Notes under the pieces: generated by a model
Seen by the model: only the letters and a program-made list of their open reading frames with translations
What the model was told of the DNA's origin: nothing
Databases searched by the model: none
Translations under genes and position numbers: made by a program
Source of the DNA: a virus
IMG/VR virus record: IMGVR_UViG_3300049259_000177
Span: 50,595 to 114,594 of that record
Direction: 5' to 3' (one strand)
DNA length: 64,000 nt
Shown here: in pieces, positions 2,037 to 27,236 of the stretch
Layout of the letters: each line of letters starts with the position of its first letter
How positions within the stretch are numbered: position 1 is the stretch's first letter

Positions 2037-5000
2037 GGGCCGAAGACCCCGATGTCCGCCATCGCTCGCAGCCGCCGGTTGATCGAGTCGCTCGCGGGCT
2101 CGGCGACCGGATTGTTGGTGACGATCGCCCCTTCCTCGAAGACCACGCCACGATCCTGCACGACTATCGGCCTCGGTTGTGTCTCACCACGCGCCGCACC
2201 GACGAGCGTGTCCAGTGAACTCGGTGCGGCCACCGCGAGTACATCGCCACCGAGTCCGTTGAGCCGGTCGATGAGGTCATCGCCGAGGAACGCGCGGGCT
2301 TTCTCTGTGAGGACGGCTTCTCCACCGAGTGCACGGATGACCCGCTCACCCCTACCCGGGATGACACCGCCGGTGTGGTAACCGACGTAGGAGCCGCCGG
2401 ACATCATCGCGGCGATGCCGGCGATGCCGGGGATGGCGCCGATGCCGCCGTAGCGGCTGACGCCATAGTTGAGACCGGCGAAGACGTTGGCGTACGGGTC
2501 GGTCGACACGCCGTAGGAGAACGGGCCGGTGCGCGCGTACTTGCCTGCGTACTTCGCGAACGTCGAGTCGATGACCTGCGCGAGCCCGACGGAGGGGTGC
2601 CCGGCCTGCCAGTTCGAGTCCCACTTGTTGACACTCTCCGGGTCGCCGGAGGACTCGCCGCTGATGAGCCGCAGCACGTACGGCGTCCACTTCGTCGACT
2701 GGCCGAGTTCGGTAAGTACCGAGTCGACCAACGACGACCAGCGCGTGACGTCGCCGGTGAGGCCTGACGTCGAAGGCGAGGGACCGGTCGGGTCGCCGGT
2801 GCCCTTGGCGGCAGCGTCTTTCTTGCCGAGCAGGTCGAGCACGCCGTCGATGAGTTGGTTCATCATGCCGCCGAGGGCCCCGGTGTATACCGGCGGCGCG
2901 TGCAAGTTCGCGTTGATGAGGTGCCGGACGGGGACGAATGCCGCCGTCAGCGCTTTCCTGAGCCCCCCAACGGCCAGGTTCTTCAAGGCGCCGACCGCGT
3001 CGCCGAACACGTCCTTGACGGCGCCGGTGACGCCGGTGACGCCGTGCCACACCGAGCCAGCGGCGCCCTTGATGTCGTGCCAGATGCCACCGATGCCGAA
3101 CGCCGGGGAACCGTCCGCCCCGACCGTCGGGCCCGGCGCGGGCGCGGCGGCGACGCGGGCGGAGAAGGTGGAGTTGATCGCGTGGATGGCGGGCGCTCCA
3201 CCGAGCCCGCGCACCGCTTCCGGCACGAGGATGCCCTCGCCGGGAGACACAAGTGCGCGGACGGTGTCGCGGCCGGGTGCGTAGCCGGGGATGACGCCGC
3301 CGTGCGCGAACTTGCCCTCGGGTAAGGGCGGCAGGTTGACGAGGTCGGCGACCTTGTTCCAGGCCCAGCGGATGCCGTTGTTGTAGACGGTGTTGACGAC
3401 GAACCGGACCGGCGCCTCGGCGACAGACTTGAGTCGCCCCCAAATCTGGCCGATCGCGCTGACCGTCGTACGGAAGGCGCCCTTGATGTCATTGAGCACA
3501 TTGGAGATCGCCGTCTTCGCCGCCCCGAACATGCTGTCGGCGGCGTTCTTGAGGCCGGTCCAGAACGTCGACCAGCCGGACGACAGTGTGTTCCAGGCGC
3601 CCGTGAACAGGCCCTTGATCCCGCCCCATATCGTGTCGATCACCGTCTTCACGGCGCCCCACAGGTCGCGCGCGACGGTCTTGAGGCCGGTCCAGAACGC
3701 CTGCCACCCGGCGGAGATGACCTTCCACTCGGTCAGGTACAGCGCCTTGATCCCGTCCCACACTGCCGCGATGGCGTCCCGCACGCCATGCCAGATCGCG
3801 AGACCGACGGTCTTGAGGCCGGTCCAGAACGCCTGCCACCCGGCGGAGATGACCTTGAAGGCGTCGGCGAAGACGGCCTTCGTCTGCTCCCAGTGCTTCG
3901 CGATGAACACGAACGCAAGACCGAGCGGGCCGGTGAGGATCGCGAACAGGTACGGCCAGTTGTCCTTGACCCAGTTCCAGACGAATTCCGCTGCTTCCTT
4001 CACTGCGTCGAAGGCACCGGTCACGATCTTGCGGAAGGTGTCGCTGCGCTGCCACAGCACGACAAAGGCGGCTCCGAGCGCGACGACGAGCCCGATGATG
4101 AGGACGATCGGGTTCGCGTCCATCGCCGCATTCAGGAGCCATTGCGCGGCGGCTACGGCCTTCGCGGCGGCAGCCTGGGCGAGTTCGGCGGCGGTAGCAG
4201 CGATCGTGCGTGCGCGGACGATGAGGAACTGCGCAGCCGTCTTCGCCAACGCACCGGCGGACAGGGCCATGTTCTTGAGGAACGTCCCGGTCCGCTTGCC
4301 CGCGTTGAGCAGCGCGTCGCCCGCCAACTTCGCTCCGCGCGCGAGTTTGCCGCCGAGCGTCGACGCCGCATTGCTGCCGGAGGTTTCGACGTCATCGAGG
4401 GCCTTTTTCTTCGCCTGGTCCTTCGGCAGTTCCTTGTCGATCTCTTTGGTGGACAAGCCGAGCGCGCCACGGAACTTGTCCCACAACTTCGACGCGCCCG
4501 GCACCTTCGACATGATGCCGCCGAGTTTCGAACCGAGTTTGCCGATGGCGCCGACGGTCAGCCCGATGCCGGTCGCTGCACCACCGATGGCGAGCAGGCC
4601 GAGCACGAACTGATGAATGCCGGGCACCTTCACGATCGCGTTGACCGCGCGCAGGATCAGGTCGAGGGAACGGGCGGCGGCGGTCAGCGCACCCGACCCG
4701 CCGCCGAGGTCGCCGAACAACTGGGCGACGGTCGTGAGCAGTTGCACGAAGGCCGGGCCGAACGAGGTGCTCATCGACTGCAACGCGGTGACGAGCGCGG
4801 GCACGAACTTGGTCGTCACTTGGTCGATCAACGTCGCGGTCGACTTGTCGGCGCCGATCTTGCCGATACCAGCGACAAGGCCGTCGAACAACCGGCCGAG
4901 CGCCTTCACGCCGGGGACCGCGTTATCGAAGTAGGTCTTGAGGGCGTTGCCCCCAGTCGTGCCGGGCTCGGTGATCGCCTTGAGTTTCTCGACGGACTTG

Positions 5001-10703: not shown

Positions 10704-11866
10704 CGCTCGACCGCCTCGATCATGCTCTCGACGCCCGGCACATCCCGACCGTAACAGCCCATCGCCAGACCAACCTTGTTGGTGAGCATCTGCGCTCTGA
10801 AGGTGTAGTTCTGGCCTTGCACCGGCTGGAACCGCCAGGTCAGGAAGAACGAGCCGTAGTATTGCTGGCCCGACGCGATCGCCGATGCGTTGGTCTTGGT
10901 GTCACGGCTGGTGATAGATGCGTCGGCGTTGACCTCGGCCAACACCGCCGAGAATCGGCTGACCGTACCTGCTACGACCGTACCGAGGCTGATCGCCAGC
11001 ACCACGCTCAACTGGATCTTGATGGGACGGACCCCACCGACGACACCGATCTGCAACCCGGGGATGTCGTGCGCGTTCCCATCCGCCGCATTCGCCTGCG
11101 ACAGCGAAGTAGCAAGGAACGCGTAGGCCAGTTCCCGTCCACCGGTGTTGTTAACCGCAGTCGTGTTCGCCGCGATTGCTGCCGCGTTCGCCTGCTCCGC
11201 CGCTGTTGCCCGTGCGACTTCGGCTGTCAAGTCCGTGATCAGCGCGCGCAGGTTGATGGCGGCGGTGTTGGCAGCCTCCGCCGCCTGTGCCCGGTTCGTC
11301 TCGGCGGTCAGGTCGGTGATCAGCGCGCGCAGGTTGATGGCGGCCTGCATCGCCGCCGCGCCGGACTCGTCGCCGCGCAGTTGGGCGTCGATCTCGGCGA
11401 GCGTGTCAAGCGCGACGTCCAGGGTTCCGCCGGTCAGCGCCGAAAGTTGCGCGTTGACGTACGCCCGGTCGCCGTGCACGTCCGGTGCACTGACGTGCGC
11501 GGCGAGCACGCTGTCCCCGTGAGCCCGGTCGCCGTGTGGGTCGGCAGCGGTCTCGTGCGCGGTGATACGCGGTCCTGCGACCGGGTCGGTCTCCGCCGTG
11601 ATGCCACCGCCCGGGCCACTACCGCCGAGTGTCGCGGGGTCGACGCCTTCGGCGAGCATTGTGTCGGCGTTCCAGGTCAGCACTTCGCGGTCTTGCAGCG
11701 TCGCGTAGTCGGCGAAGATGTTGCGCGGTCCGGTGACCAGCGGCGTGTCCGCGTCGGCGTACTGCGCGTAGCCAGCGTTGACCAGCCGCCGCGCGTCCTC
11801 ATCGGCGACGTCGATGACGTCGCCGACATGATGACCCTGCCACGGACTTGAGAACTTGACCCTCAC
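10700..11866 (-). CDS. Virion fibre-like protein with coiled-coil stalk
   Basis: 388 aa; LDTLAEI motif, duplicated AINLRALITDLTAE, beta-rich C-terminal domain. Confidence 0.6.
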   Translation of the reverse strand: MRVKFSSPWQGHHVGDVIDVADEDARRLVNAGYAQYADADTPLVTGPRNIFADYATLQDREVLTWNADTMLAEGVDPATLGGSGPGGGITAETDPVAGPRITAHETAADPHGDRAHGDSVLAAHVSAPDVHGDRAYVNAQLSALTGGTLDVALDTLAEIDAQLRGDESGAAAMQAAINLRALITDLTAETNRAQAAEAANTAAINLRALITDLTAEVARATAAEQANAAAIAANTTAVNNTGGRELAYAFLATSLSQANAADGNAHDIPGLQIGVVGGVRPIKIQLSVVLAISLGTVVAGTVSRFSAVLAEVNADASITSRDTKTNASAIASGQQYYGSFFLTWRFQPVQGQNYTFRAQMLTNKVGLAMGCYGRDVPGVESMIEAVER

Positions 11867-22977: not shown

Positions 22978-23029
22978 GATGCCCGCCAGCGGCGCTTAGG
23001 TCGCGCCGGGCGGGCATCACGGGAAGATC

Positions 23030-23449
23030 TCAGCCGTACAGACGGGCCTCCTCGCGCTCCAAGTGGGCCCGCTCGGCCTCGGTGAGCGCCATGTAGGCGC
23101 GACGCTCGGCGGCGTGGCCCTCGCACTGGTACGCCTCGCGATCGGTGGCGAGCAGCCCGCAGCGGCCGTCACTGAGCCCGTCTTCCGTGCGGATCTCGAT
23201 GAGATCGCCGCAGGTGACCGGGTAGGCGACGCCACCGGCGGCGTCATCGACTACATAGGCGGCCAGAACGCCCTCGACGAGACGTGTGCCGGGCAGTTCG
23301 AGTGCTGTGCGCATGTGGTCGCTACACACGCCTTGACGGTGGTCGCGGCCCGGAGCCTCGAACTCGCCGTACTCGTAGTCGGCCCACACGGTCGGCTGGC
23401 CGTAGGTGCGGACGAAGCCGCTGCGCTCTAGGGCGGTCATCTCGATCAT
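23030..23449 (-). CDS. Hypothetical early protein
   Basis: ACAGGAG RBS; preceded by an operator-type promoter and the 5'UTR hairpin. Confidence 0.7.
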   Translation of the reverse strand: MIEMTALERSGFVRTYGQPTVWADYEYGEFEAPGRDHRQGVCSDHMRTALELPGTRLVEGVLAAYVVDDAAGGVAYPVTCGDLIEIRTEDGLSDGRCGLLATDREAYQCEGHAAERRAYMALTEAERAHLEREEARLYG

Positions 23450-23471
23450 GTCTGTTTCTCCTGTCGGTCTG

Positions 23472-23529
23472 GCCGGGTCGCTCTCCCGGCTCGCAAGCGA
23501 GCGTACACCCGCTTAGCGACGTGGCGCAA
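23472..23529 (-). promoter_or_regulatory. Early-type promoter with CGCTAAGCG operator and 5'UTR hairpin
   Basis: TTGCGC-N5-CGCTAAGCGGGTG-TACGCT, then CCGGG-AGAGCGA-CCCGG. Confidence 0.75.
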
Positions 23530-23646
23530 CCGGATCGGGCGGTTGGCCTCCGCTCATTTCCCGATAGGACTGGATGGTGCGAAGGCCACGCTCGACCTCC
23601 TCGCGAGCCCGCCGACGCTTGCGAGCACGAAGCCAGCGACACGCCC

Positions 23647-24300
23647 TCACGTAAGCGACTCCCACTCAACGATCTCGTAGCGGCCAAAGCCCTGCGACCG
23701 GGAGGCGCCGACGCCTTGCTGCTCGCCGGTCAGCCAGAGCATGCCCCACCTGTCGCGGGTGAGTTCCTCGGAGTCGGTGACGACGGTGAACGACACCTTG
23801 GCGTCGGTGACGTACTCCTCGTACTGGATGCCGGTGCCGCGCCAGGTGTGCACGAAGCGCTGGTTGATGCCAGACGCCTCGACGACACCGAGCGGGATCG
23901 TGTCTTCGACGACGAACACGTGCTCGGCGAAGTAGGACAGCGTGCCCTTACGACTCGGCCCCCAGCGGTCCTTAGGCCACCGGACGTTCGCGGCTTCCTT
24001 GATCGCGGCCTTCACCTGACGACCTTCGATGTAGAGCCCGTCGGCGTTGCGCTTGAACCCGTTGAGGTGCTTGAGACTGTCGACCTCGGCGATCGCTTCC
24101 TCGGCGGGGATGCCGCGCTCGGCCATCGTCGTCGCGACCATCTCGCGGATCAGGTCGTCCTTGTCGGCCATCTTCGTGCGTAGCCAACCCTCGGCGACCT
24201 TCGGGTCAGTTGGCACGCCACCGGCGAGCGTCGCGACGAGCAACGTCGCCCGGAAGCGATGCGGGTAAGCCTGCTCGCGCAGGTCATCGAACAGGGACAT
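23647..24300 (-). CDS. Stand-alone RAMP/Cas7-like RNA-binding protein (217 aa)
   Basis: ACAGGAG RBS at 24309-24315. Has F.ATL.....LAGGVP, YIEGRQVKAAIKEAA and a C-terminal Gly-rich loop GVGASRSQGFGRY, all RAMP hallmarks. Confidence 0.8.
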   Translation of the reverse strand: MSLFDDLREQAYPHRFRATLLVATLAGGVPTDPKVAEGWLRTKMADKDDLIREMVATTMAERGIPAEEAIAEVDSLKHLNGFKRNADGLYIEGRQVKAAIKEAANVRWPKDRWGPSRKGTLSYFAEHVFVVEDTIPLGVVEASGINQRFVHTWRGTGIQYEEYVTDAKVSFTVVTDSEELTRDRWGMLWLTGEQQGVGASRSQGFGRYEIVEWESLT

Positions 24301-24317
24301 CGTGGCGGCTCCTGTGG

Positions 24318-24638
24318 CTAGTCGGATGGGATGGGGAGGGCGGCCGAGGCGTGGGTGGGGGAGTCGGGCCGAGGCGGGCTGGGGTCGGCGGGGCAGGGGT
24401 GGGTCGGGAAGTCGGGCTGGGGCTGGGGAGACACGGGAAGTCGGGCTGGGTGGGGTCGGGAAGACGTGCGGTGCAGCGGGCAGGCATGGGTGGTCGGAGC
24501 GGGAGAGGGACGGGCTGGCGAGGAACGGGTAGGCGCGGGCAGACCTGGGTGGTCGGACGCGGAGAGGGCCGAATAGGGCGGGGTCGGGAAGGCATGTCGG
24601 AGTGGGAAGGGCGGGGAAGCCTAGCCTTGGGAAGTCAG
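24318..24638 (-). ncRNA. Pentamer-periodic guide-like repeat array (CC-NNN units punctuated by CCGAC), 7 units
   Basis: Eight CCGAC/CTGAC-NNN delimiters (plus-strand starts 24318, 24360, 24408, 24437, 24490, 24549, 24593, 24631) enclose 51 near-pentamers. By manual count 40 end in GG on the plus strand. Confidence 0.8.
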
Positions 24639-25165
24639 GCGGCCTTGCCGACGATGCTGCGGTACATCGCGTCGTACTCCTCCTCGGTAAACACCTCCTC
24701 GGTGCGTCGGTCTCCGACGCGCTTGGCGACTGCCTTGTGGAACGCCTCGCGCATCTTCGCGACCGCTGCCGTCTCGTGATAGCGGCTGGCGACGTACATG
24801 TGGTCCGCACCGGTCATGTCGCCGACGCGGCGCCTCGTTCCGCCGTCGTCGATGGCGTAGACGACAGCGAAGTGGCTGAGCGCAGCGAGGTCACCACTGC
24901 CGACCGCGTCCGCGAAGGCACGTGGCTGCCGCCGGGCGAGAGCGGTCGAGCGGTCGTGGCGTAGCGCCAGCGAGAGATCCGACGTCAGGTAGCGGGCGGC
25001 ATTGTCGGTCAGCCACGCCGTCAGTACCTCCGGGTTGCTGGCGCGGAGATCTCGGATGGCCTAGTCAGCCACGACGGCAGGCACGAAGTCGCCATCCGGG
25101 CGGGCGGCGTCGATTGCTGCCTGGATCGCGGGTGGGAACATGCCGTCTCCGTTCGGGGCGTTCAT
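24635..25165 (-). pseudogene. Accessory gene of the RAMP locus (176 codons) with an in-frame amber at 25061-25063
   Basis: ATG 25165 lies 6 nt after TAGTGT (leaderless -10). Reads MNAPNGDGMFPPAIQAAIDAARPDGDFVPAVVAD*AIRDLRASNPEVLTAWL... and stays open to TGA 24635, which overlaps the first array delimiter. Confidence 0.7.
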
Positions 25166-25259
25166 GCGACGACACTAAGCGCGTGTGCGCCACGCCTAGC
25201 GCTTCACGTGCGGGCGTGTCGACCGGACAGGTGGTCGGGCACGCCCGCGCGTGATGGGC

Positions 25260-27162
25260 TCACACGGCTCGGAGGTTGCCCCGACGGCCCGTTGCCGGGC
25301 GTGAGGCGCTCTCCTGCCAGTCCTCGGCGAGCGGGCCGGGGTCCAGCACCTTGCGAGCACGAGTAACGGCGACGTAGCGCAGCCGCAGTTCTTCCGGTGA
25401 CGGTTCCTTGACCTCGCCGTCCTTGCCGGGCTTGGCCTCGAAGTCGTCGCCGATGCGGACGTTCTCCCACTCCCTGCCCTTCGCTTTGTGCGCGGTGGAG
25501 ACGATCAGCGTGGCCGACGCCTCGGTGACGGCGCCGTCGAGCACGCCGAGCAGAGTCGGGCAGGAGAACTCGTTGATGAGCCGGACGAGGACCGCGAGGT
25601 CACTGCCGTCCGGGTCGCTGTCGACGTACTCCTCGACCATCGACCACGAGGTGAACAGGCTCAACTCGGGGAACGTCGTCGAGCCGTTGTCGATCAACTC
25701 CTGCGCGCCACGGATGAAGGCGCTCATCTGCTTGCCGCCGCCGACGAGGTGCACCGACGTGCCGTCGCGCTGCGCGTCGAGCGCGACCTTGAGGGCGCCC
25801 GCGTTGGTCCGGCACAGCACCGCGTCCGGCTTGTCGAGCGCGGCGACGGTGGAGAGGATCTGCGTGGTGCCCTTGATTCGCAGCGGGGTGTCCAACTGCG
25901 ACAGGAAGCGGTTGGCCTCGGTGGCGATCGCCGGGCCGAAGCGGAACGACTGCGAGAGGTAGAGCACCTCGACGCCGGGCTCGCGGGAGAAGATCCCCAT
26001 CGCGTCGATCGCGCCGCGCCACTCGTAGATGGCCTGGGCGCGGTCGCCGACGAAGACGCGCTGGCAGTGGGTCTGGCGGGCGACAACGCTCGCGATGACC
26101 GGGTCGGCGTCCTGCGCCTCGTCGAACAGGATGAAGTCGACGTCGAGGCGCGGGTTGCTCAACTGCCACATCTCCCTGCGACTCGGCGCGGCGACGGATG
26201 CCGAGCGTGTTGCCCTGCGTGCGCGTACGCCAGGTGGTCCGTCCGATCCGGTAGTCGTCCCCCCGTCGGGCGAGGTACACGACGTGGTTGCCGTCGGTCA
26301 GGTCGGCGTCGAGGCGCACCACGCACCGGTGTTCGGCCGTGTATGCGCTCGTGCGCCCGCGAGAGGTCGTCGCCCGCACGAGATCGCCGTCGTAGTGGCG
26401 CTGGCCGACCGCTGTGACCTTGCGGCCCTGACGGCGGATGGAACCGAGCCTGCTCGCAGCCGGGGTCCACGACATCACGTAGTCGCCTTCGCGGAGCGTC
26501 TCGATGGGCACCTCCTCGAACGACGAGCCGAGGTGGCCGCCACGGCTCACCACGCGGCGTACGAGCGTCCCGGTGGGCTGGCAGTCGTGTTGGAAGCGCA
26601 GTTGACCGTCGGTGTCGTTCAGGTCGGCCCACGCCTTGCGGGCGAACGGGACAAGGTGGCGGGCGAGTTCGCGGTGGTTGGCGCCACGACGTTTGGTGAC
26701 CTCGCCTTCGAGGCCCTCGATGAATGGCATGTGCGTGACGTCGATCTCGCGGTCGGCGGAGGAGCAGAACCGGGCGACCATCTGCATCGTGTAACGGGCG
26801 AGCACGTCCTTGGTGACGGTCTTCTCGCCGACCCGGATGCCCTCGTTGATGCCGATGATCTTCGCGGCTTGCCAGGCAGGGACGCGGGCGTTGGAGCGCA
26901 GCCGATGGGCGTAGGTGCGGCCGACTGCCTTCATCGCGTAGGAGTGGGCCGTCCCGCAGACCATGTTCGAGGGGAAGGTCTGCTTCGCCTCACCGGCGAT
27001 CGCGGCGTTGTAGGCGATGTACATGCCTCGGCGGCTCGGGGTAGCGCTCGCCATCAGTTTCAGTGTCGAGGTCTTTCCGGTGCCTGCACCGGCCTCCACG
27101 ACGATGTTCTTGCGAGCGCGGAAGGCATCAACGATGGCCTGCTGCTCGGTGGTCGGGTTCAT
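25260..27162 (-). pseudogene. UvrD/Rep-like SF1 helicase split by a truncated intein and a frameshift
   Basis: N-part: PTTEQQAI, AGAGTGKT, TAHS. C-part, in another frame: ILFDEAQD, VGD.AQAIYEWRGA, LSQSFRFG, STAHKAKGREW, YVAVTRA. Confidence 0.85.
26172..26583 (-). mobile_element. N-terminal fragment of an intein (C-terminal half missing)
   Basis: HD|CQPTGTLV...VPIETLREGDYVMSW...YTAEHRC (blocks A and B). No terminal HN; the frame breaks at 26172. Confidence 0.8.
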
Positions 27163-27180
27163 TGCCCTGTCTCCTGTCCG

Positions 27181-27236
27181 GCGGGTCGCTCTCCCGCACA
27201 ACCAAGACCGTACACCCGCTTAGCGTGAGAGCGCAA
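27181..27236 (-). promoter_or_regulatory. Early-type promoter with operator and hairpin (UvrD)
   Basis: TTGCGC-N5-CGCTAAGCGGGTG-TACGGT, then GCGGG-AGAGCGA-CCCGC. Confidence 0.75.

What the first reader, a model, noticed from the sequence alone, without database searches (positions are those of the whole stretch)
24557..24595. A second unit decodes, on the opposite strand, to M-F/L-D-R-Y-G-S-A, another recombinase-like Tyr motif
Seen: the sense-strand unit ccgacATG ccTTC ccGAC ccCGC ccTAT tcGGC ccTCT ccGCGt gives ATG TTC GAC CGC TAT GGC TCT GCG. The other orientation contains TAG. Established: a subgroup of tyrosine recombinases has GWxSxxM[L/F]xRY[G/A] around the catalytic Tyr. Inference: this is a second anti-integrase guide. 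Its orientation is opposite to the previous unit, which would favour a double-stranded DNA target over mRNA. The match is only 8 codons, so it is weaker evidence.
Basis: partly seen in the sequence, partly recalled or inferred. Interest (0 to 1): 0.75.

Follow-up and report, generated by a model that had tools for sequence, protein, structure and literature searches.

The report
One guide unit of a phage VIPR array
The 39-base stretch is a real guide unit in a phage VIPR array (a CRISPR-like system first described in 2026), but its proposed target, an integrase gene, is not supported, whereas the next unit in the array does match phage integrase genes.

Summary
On the minus strand, 24595-24556 is eight in-phase pentamers of the form NN-y-C-C behind a CCGAC mark. 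It is one unit (U1) of a 334-nt non-coding array between a helper gene and a 217-aa gene. That protein folds like Cas7/Csm3. Thirteen related loci carry the same array: fifth base C in 94%, first two bases near random. This fits VIPR (Vipr + vap + vrRNA; bioRxiv 2026), where the variable NN pairs read double-stranded DNA and skip every third base.

The integrase target fails. None of 83 exact and 17 one-mismatch hits lies in a tyrosine recombinase. None of 94 integrases in four host-like genomes reaches 13/16. With TA placed on the catalytic Tyr, the best score is 10/16. Exact hits in viral contigs (3) equal the controls (3, 2).

The neighbouring unit U2 is an anti-integrase guide. Its 9-NN core has 8 exact viral hits, all at the integrase motif TLDTYAHLW, and one record matches 21/22.

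The target of U1 is unknown. This scan has met the same system in other genomes. The fixed letters here are C-C, or G-G if the antisense strand is the RNA; the strand is untested.

The parts
24556..24600 (-). Unit U1, the finding: CCGAC mark (24600-24596) plus 8 pentamers NN-y-C-C. The informative dinucleotides are AT TT GA CG TA GG TC GC.
   Evidence: The Viterbi parse gives one in-phase segment here.
24318..24640 (-). The whole pentamer array of about 7 guide units, U0-U6, reset at CCGAC. It fills the gap from the stop codon of the helper gene to the ribosome-binding site of vipr. It is 56% C on the gene strand.
   Evidence: The same array type lies beside the homologous gene in 13 of 13 other loci.
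24498..24556 (-). Unit U2, 11 pentamers: CA AG TG GC TA GT TC AG GT TC CG. Its reverse complement reads R-[D/E]-T-L-[D/E]-T-Y-A-[H/Q]-L-[C/W], the catalytic-Tyr motif of tyrosine integrases.
   Evidence: The 9-NN core has 8 exact hits in viral contigs, all in integrases at ..TLDTYAHLW.., and L214 matches 21/22. P<0.001 in integrase Tyr windows.
23647..24300 (-). vipr: a 217-aa lone Cas7/Csm3-like RAMP protein with a C-terminal Gly-rich loop.
   Evidence: AlphaFold2 model, pLDDT 79.5. Foldseek against PDB: top hits all Cas7 family, E 2.5e-6, probability 1.0. VIA-align Z 11.3, 160 residues aligned. No Pfam, PHROG or PADLOC family. 1452 homologues.
24635..25165 (-). Candidate vap (helper) gene, mostly helical, interrupted by an in-frame TAG at 25061-25063.
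   Evidence: Translation. The part after the stop aligns to the 195-aa L004 homologue, E 2e-15. The gene is conserved beside vipr, also in a cyanophage. The fold has no PDB match.

Best explanation
The stretch is one guide unit (U1) of a VIPR-type array. The array is probably transcribed with the flanking vap and vipr genes. The Cas7-like Vipr protein is then expected to coat the RNA, one protomer per pentamer. It would hold the fixed bases (y-C-C on the gene strand) and expose the two variable bases of each pentamer. The 8 exposed dinucleotides would pair with double-stranded DNA that reads AT.TT.GA.CG.TA.GG.TC.GC, skipping every third base, and silence transcription there.

Shown here: the array grammar, its conservation, the Cas7-like fold, the absence of self-targets, and that the adjacent unit U2 matches phage integrase genes under this rule.

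Inferred from the 2026 VIPR papers: filament formation, DNA binding and silencing.

The natural target of U1 is not identified, and it is not a tyrosine recombinase in any set searched.
For: Fold: Cas7/Csm3/type VII Cas7.

Array grammar and conservation: fifth base C in 94%, NN near uniform, CCGAC punctuation, units of about 38-59 nt, in 12 arrays. The same array lies downstream of vipr in a Microcystis phage and in a Caldilineaceae contig.

Published mechanism and rule.

No guide matches the phage's own 114.6-kb record at >=80% except U4 (10 informative bases), whose 9/10 is at chance (P 0.66).

Guides are not shared with the other arrays, so they are hypervariable.

U2's 9-NN core has 8 of 8 exact viral hits in integrases, against about 0.2 expected from the 16-base controls, and one record matches 21/22.
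Against: No RNA data were available, so neither transcription nor the strand of the RNA is shown. The published fixed motif is GGY. Here it is yCC on the gene strand, or GG + mostly purine on the other strand.

No sequence-level link to the published Vipr proteins was tested, and no solved Vipr structure appeared in the PDB copy.

U1, U3 and U5 have no convincing target in IMG/VR.

The helper gene carries a premature stop in this phage, so the locus may be decaying.
Confidence: 0.82

Rival explanations
1. U1 is a second anti-integrase guide. It would be aimed at a subgroup of tyrosine recombinases with ..M-[F/L]-x-R-Y-G.. around the catalytic Tyr that was not in the sets searched, or it would tolerate 4-6 mismatches.
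For: The neighbour U2 is an anti-integrase guide. SUSP1 vrRNA4 silences a satellite recombinase with only 6 units. Some actinobacterial integrases read ..MTLDRYGHLF.. or ..GWSSDQMLRRYGRS.., which share up to 10/16 informative bases with U1. In Tyr windows U1's best score is 12/16, P = 0.04-0.09.
Against: That 12/16 hit is out of frame with the Tyr codon. No integrase appears among 83 exact hits or 17 one-mismatch hits. Of 93 hits at >=13/16 in four genomes, none lies inside any of 94 PF00589 matches. No integrase with G-[H/W]..[I/M][F/L][D/E]RYG was found in 121 Streptosporangiales genomes. U1 has no >=13/16 hit in five viral records that carry U2's target. Exact viral hits equal the controls.
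Confidence: 0.1
2. U1 targets some other gene of a rival element or of the host. The two leads are a phage sigma-factor gene (viral record G492) and the DISARM helicase gene drmA.
For: There is an exact in-frame 16/16 hit in a sigma-70-like gene of a 62-kb, 61% GC viral record. There is an exact hit in a DrmA gene (NF038325, E = 0) and a 15/16 hit in a DrmA-like gene (same flanking motif; family not scanned) of an Actinomycetes genome. DrmA relatives come from the same families that carry this Vipr clade.
Against: Three exact viral hits is the control level. No other guide of the array converges on G492 or on the DISARM loci. Only 1 of the 120 closest DrmA proteins has MFDRYGSA. Most exact hits are in cellular genes, namely Sortilin/BNR, sulfatase-like and exosortase genes.
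Confidence: 0.1
3. The guide RNA is the G-rich antisense strand (GG-s-NN, each unit ending in GTCGG), not the C-rich gene strand. The target prediction stays the same, but the transcription unit and the protein-RNA contacts differ.
For: All published VIPR types fix G-G, and NNNGG repeats are listed as a variant. On the plus strand the fixed mark follows each repeat tract, like the published 3' tail.
Against: In 13 of 13 loci the C-rich strand is the vipr gene strand, whether the array lies upstream or downstream of vipr. The array fills the vap-vipr gap exactly, from stop codon to ribosome-binding site. No promoter-like site was found on either strand.
Confidence: 0.28
4. The tract is not a guide array. 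It would be a C-rich leader, for example a Rho-loading or translation-control element, and the peptide reading would be numerology.
For: The RNA would be C-rich and G-poor. There is no Rfam family. No target was found for U1.
Against: A plain C-rich leader does not explain a strict 5-base phase with near-random bases at two positions. It also does not explain constant linkage to a Cas7-like gene across phyla, or U2's 8 of 8 integrase hits.
Confidence: 0.04

Closest known systems
VIPR systems (Vipr + vap + vrRNA). Best studied is type II of Escherichia phage SUSP1 and a Pseudomonas fulva prophage (bioRxiv 10.64898/2026.04.26.720920, .720927, 2026.10.15.759431).
   Same: A lone minimal RAMP protein, encoded by phages. 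A two-gene locus with a helper gene. A non-CRISPR array of 5-base repeats with three fixed and two hypervariable bases. Targets read as NNx with the skipped base at codon wobble. Rival-element recombinase genes as targets (shown here for U2). No self-targets.
   Different: The fixed bases are y-C-C on the gene strand, not G-G-Y. Units are short (5-11 pentamers) and punctuated only by CCGAC, with no structured 3' tail. The array sits between vap and vipr, or directly after vipr in distant relatives. There is no detectable sequence similarity to any named family. Expression and binding are untested.
Non-canonical VIPR-like 5-mer arrays found by a genomic language model (bioRxiv 10.64898/2026.10.21.760802; examples GAC/NN, CAC/NN, WGT/NN, TGH/NN).
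   Same: A 5-base period, a fixed trinucleotide other than GGY, and a Vipr-like fold next to the array.
   Different: The motifs named in that text do not include yCC/NN. Whether this clade is among its 21 clusters could not be checked, because figures are not held.
Class 1 CRISPR Cas7 backbone (Csm3, Cmr4, type VII Cas7).
   Same: An RRM core with thumb and Gly-rich loop. Predicted fold match Z 10-11 over about 155 residues.
   Different: No CRISPR repeats and no other cas genes. The period is 5 bases, not 6. The guide is read in gapped form.

Membership tests
VIPR system | Vipr protein: a minimal stand-alone RAMP (RRM core, thumb, Gly-rich loop) outside any CRISPR-Cas locus | tested here: met
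   The model matches Cas7/Csm3 chains. A Gly-rich loop near the C-terminus is conserved. I saw no CRISPR-like repeat array in the window's tandem-repeat list, nor around the locus; other cas genes were not searched for.
VIPR system | Array of tandem 5-base repeats with a fixed trinucleotide and a hypervariable dinucleotide next to vipr | tested here: met
   The fixed bases differ from the published GGY: yCC on the gene strand.
VIPR system | Fixed motif GGY (or the listed variants NNNGG, YNNNG, NNNNG) on the transcribed strand | tested here: inconclusive
   The plus strand reads GG-s-NN, which fits NNNGG. The gene strand reads NN-y-CC.
VIPR system | Conserved accessory gene (vap) beside vipr | tested here: met
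   A homologous helper gene lies upstream of vipr in actinobacterial, Chloroflexota and cyanophage loci. Here it carries an in-frame TAG. Its relation to vap1-6 was not tested.
VIPR system | Guides match rival mobile elements by the 1-nt skip rule at >=80% of NN bases, with no self-target | tested here: met
   Met for U2: 8 of 8 exact core hits in viral integrases, one at 21/22. No self-target above chance. Not met for U1, U3 or U5 in the sets searched.
VIPR system | vrRNAs are expressed, co-purify with Vipr and repress DNA targets | not testable with these tools
   This needs small-RNA sequencing, pull-down and reporter assays.
   Tyr-aligned maximum 10/16. None of 94 integrases matches at >=13/16. 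No integrase among the exact or 1-mismatch hits.

The most novel reading that the evidence does not exclude
U1 could be aimed at a host defence gene rather than a rival phage. Its only exact hit in a defence or mobile-element gene family is drmA, the DISARM helicase, in actinobacteria of the same families that carry this Vipr clade. If that were the real target, it would be the first VIPR guide that silences host immunity.
Probability: 0.04. Interest if true: 0.8.

Novelty: new variant of a known kind. Interest (0 to 1): 0.42.

Why it matters
VIPR was first described in 2026, so each divergent clade tests how general its gapped code is. This clade spans actinobacterial, Chloroflexota and cyanophage loci. 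It keeps the 5-base step but fixes C-C on the gene strand and separates short guides with CCGAC. That points either to a changed protein-RNA code or to antisense guides.

The array also gives a natural example outside E. coli of a guide (U2) aimed at the catalytic-Tyr motif of rival phages' integrases.

For the finding itself the lesson is narrower. The decoding method is sound, but an 8-codon resemblance is not a target. U1 remains an orphan guide.

Tried and rejected
1. Rfam scan of 23000-26000: no family.
2. Pfam, PHROGs, NCBIfam and PADLOC on vipr and vap: nothing.
3. blastn and tblastn against cultured phages: only Microcystis phage Mae-JY09.
4. Promoter and terminator scan: nothing.
5. 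U1 exact in IMG/VR: 3 hits against controls of 3 and 2.
6. U2 full length, U3 and U5 exact in IMG/VR: 0 hits.
7. U2 at <=3 mismatches in 101 Streptomycetaceae genomes: 3 hits, none an integrase.
8. Convergence of the other guides on G492, on two DISARM loci and on five integrase-bearing viral records: none.
9. The drmA idea: the motif is present in only 1 of 120 close homologues.
10. The recurrent 'RDIYFLIFDRYGSAD' hits come from a sulfatase/LTA-synthase-like cellular family.
11. The vap fold has no PDB match with E <= 0.001.
12. A profile search of PDB sequences with the Vipr alignment gave 0 hits.
13. The VIPR preprint supplement holds no mention of actinobacteria.

Closer relatives of this array and RNA evidence therefore could not be examined.

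Full report
THE OBSERVATION. The finding lies in a 334-nt gap (24301-24634) between two minus-strand genes. GC skew on the plus strand is about +0.5, so the gene strand is 56% C. On the minus strand, 24595-24556 reads ATGCC TTCCC GACCC CGCCC TATTC GGCCC TCTCC GCGTC, behind CCGAC at 24600-24596.

The 5-base phase is real:
- G autocorrelation is 0.23 at lag 5 and 0.20 at lag 10.
- In-phase C triples number 93 against 56 +/- 6 in shuffles, z = 6.
- The longest in-phase run is 17 pentamers, P = 0.005.

The whole gap parses into about seven units (U0-U6) of 5-11 pentamers. Each unit is reset at a CCGAC mark. The first mark overlaps the stop codon of the upstream gene, and the last sits just before the ribosome-binding site of the downstream gene.

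WHAT IT IS. The downstream 217-aa protein has no Pfam, PHROG or PADLOC family, but it has 1452 homologues and 580 representative clusters. An AlphaFold2 model (pLDDT 79.5) matches only Cas7-family chains: type VII Cas7, Csm3 and Cmr4. Foldseek gives E 2.5e-6 at probability 1.0, and VIA-align gives Z 11.3 with 160 residues aligned.

Eleven loci with homologues of 58-69% identity carry the same C-rich array directly upstream of the gene. They come from viral contigs and from Streptosporangium, Streptomyces, Nocardiopsis, Actinomadura, Pedococcus and other genomes. A logo anchored on CCGAC shows C at every fifth base in 71-94% of sites. A phase parse of about 4,800 nt gives C at 94%, 69% and 56% for positions 5, 4 and 3, and near-uniform bases at positions 1-2.

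Two distant relatives carry the same CCGAC + pentamer array on the gene strand directly downstream of the gene. They are Microcystis phage Mae-JY09 (36% identity) and a Caldilineaceae contig (49%).

A conserved, mostly helical gene precedes the Cas7-like gene in all of them. Its fold has no PDB match. In locus L004 the module follows an integrase, a repressor and a cro-like gene, so it opens the early operon of a temperate phage.

THE KNOWN SYSTEM. Earlier notes of this scan on other genomes named VIPR, and I read the papers. The main points are:
- VIPR consists of a lone ancestral RAMP (Vipr), a vap gene and vrRNAs of 9-16 YNNGG repeats.
- Vipr forms a filament with one protomer per repeat. 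It sequesters GGY and exposes NN.
- NN pairs with double-stranded DNA while every third target base is skipped. That base usually falls on codon wobble, and either strand can be targeted.
- Natural targets are rival phages and satellites, and the criterion is >=80% NN match.
- SUSP1 vrRNA4, with six units, silences a satellite's excision recombinase.
- Variant repeats (NNNGG, YNNNG, NNNNG; GAC/NN, CAC/NN and others) are reported.

TESTING THE INTEGRASE CLAIM FOR U1. The pattern is AT.TT.GA.CG.TA.GG.TC.GC, with 16 informative bases.
- In IMG/VR it has 3 exact hits. Two control patterns of the same composition give 3 and 2.
- One hit is in frame in a sigma-factor-like gene of a 62-kb, 61% GC virus. 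No other guide converges on that record.
None of the 80 loci listed (plus the 3 viral hits, 83 in all) lies in a tyrosine recombinase. They fall in Sortilin/BNR proteins, a sulfatase-like family, an exosortase, a DrmA helicase and others.
- In 401 Actinomycetes genomes there are 17 hits at <=1 mismatch against 4 for the control. None is an integrase.
- In four genomes that carry this Vipr clade there are 93 hits at >=13/16 against 56 for the control. None falls inside any of 94 PF00589 matches.
- With U1's TA placed on the catalytic Tyr of 28 integrases, the score averages 6.3 and peaks at 10/16, for ..MTLDRYGHLF.. and ..QMLRRYGRS...
- U1's best hit inside the Tyr windows is 12/16, but it is out of frame (P 0.04-0.09).
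- A gapped pattern for G-[H/W]..[I/M][F/L][D/E]RYG found no integrase in 121 Streptosporangiales genomes.
- The phage record itself has no PF00589 match and no self-target.

THE NEIGHBOUR UNIT. U2 (24556-24498) behaves differently. Its best hit in the integrase windows is 17/22, which 0 of 1000 shuffled or random guides reach. Its 9-NN core has 8 exact hits in IMG/VR, where about 0.2 are expected. All 8 are in tyrosine integrases at ..LGHAS..TLDTYAHLW.., in frame with the skipped base at wobble. A 45-kb, 69% GC viral record matches 21/22. So the array does hold an anti-integrase guide. This raises the prior for U1, yet U1 has no >=13/16 hit in five records that carry U2's target.

OTHER LEADS FOR U1. 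The DrmA hit looked attractive, with 16/16 in one metagenome gene and 15/16 in one genome. However, only 1 of the 120 closest DrmA proteins has the motif, and no other guide hits the DISARM loci. I treat it as chance.

STRAND. On the gene strand the scaffold is y-C-C. On the other strand it is G-G-s, with each unit ending in GTCGG. In 13 of 13 loci the C-rich strand is the vipr strand, whether the array is upstream or downstream, and it fills the gap exactly. That favours co-transcription. The constant G-G of all published types keeps the antisense model alive, at about 0.28. No RNA data could be reached.

VERDICT. The unit is a VIPR-type guide of a divergent clade that this scan has met before on other DNA. 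The decoding logic and the dsDNA idea agree with the literature. The integrase target of this unit is not supported, and its target is unknown.

Noticed in passing
window 24498-24556 (-): The adjacent unit U2 matches the catalytic-Tyr motif (..ETLDTYAHLW..) of tyrosine integrases in GC-rich viral contigs. There are 8 of 8 exact core hits, and one record matches 21/22.
   Followed up: yes
window 25061-25063 (-): The conserved helper (vap-like) gene has an in-frame TAG inside a conserved N-terminal stretch. After it, no in-frame start codon occurs until a 60-aa remnant. This may be a pseudogene, a read-through site or a sequencing error.
   Followed up: partly
window 25260-27201 (-): The UvrD-like helicase is split over two frames. 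The N-terminal part runs into a Hint/intein-like stretch (CQPTG...) that is not continued. It looks like a broken intein-bearing helicase.
   Followed up: no
L005 3170-3695 (Microcystis phage Mae-JY09, record end) and L014 4730-5090: Distant relatives place the same CCGAC + C-anchored pentamer array directly downstream of vipr. In Mae-JY09 it ends at a strong hairpin near the genome end. This is a cultured phage in which the RNA strand could be tested.
   Followed up: partly
L004 106-3663: In a 45-kb temperate viral contig the vap-array-vipr module comes right after the integrase, an XRE repressor and a cro-like gene. It therefore opens the early operon.
   Followed up: partly
window 3613-3856 and 11195-11344: Long tandem repeats of period 132 and 81 lie in coding sequence. 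They may belong to structural genes such as a tape measure.
   Followed up: no
G004 contig C656 (34-46 kb): Four tyrosine-integrase genes lie within 12 kb in an Actinomadura genome that also carries this Vipr clade. This may be an integrative element cluster.
   Followed up: no
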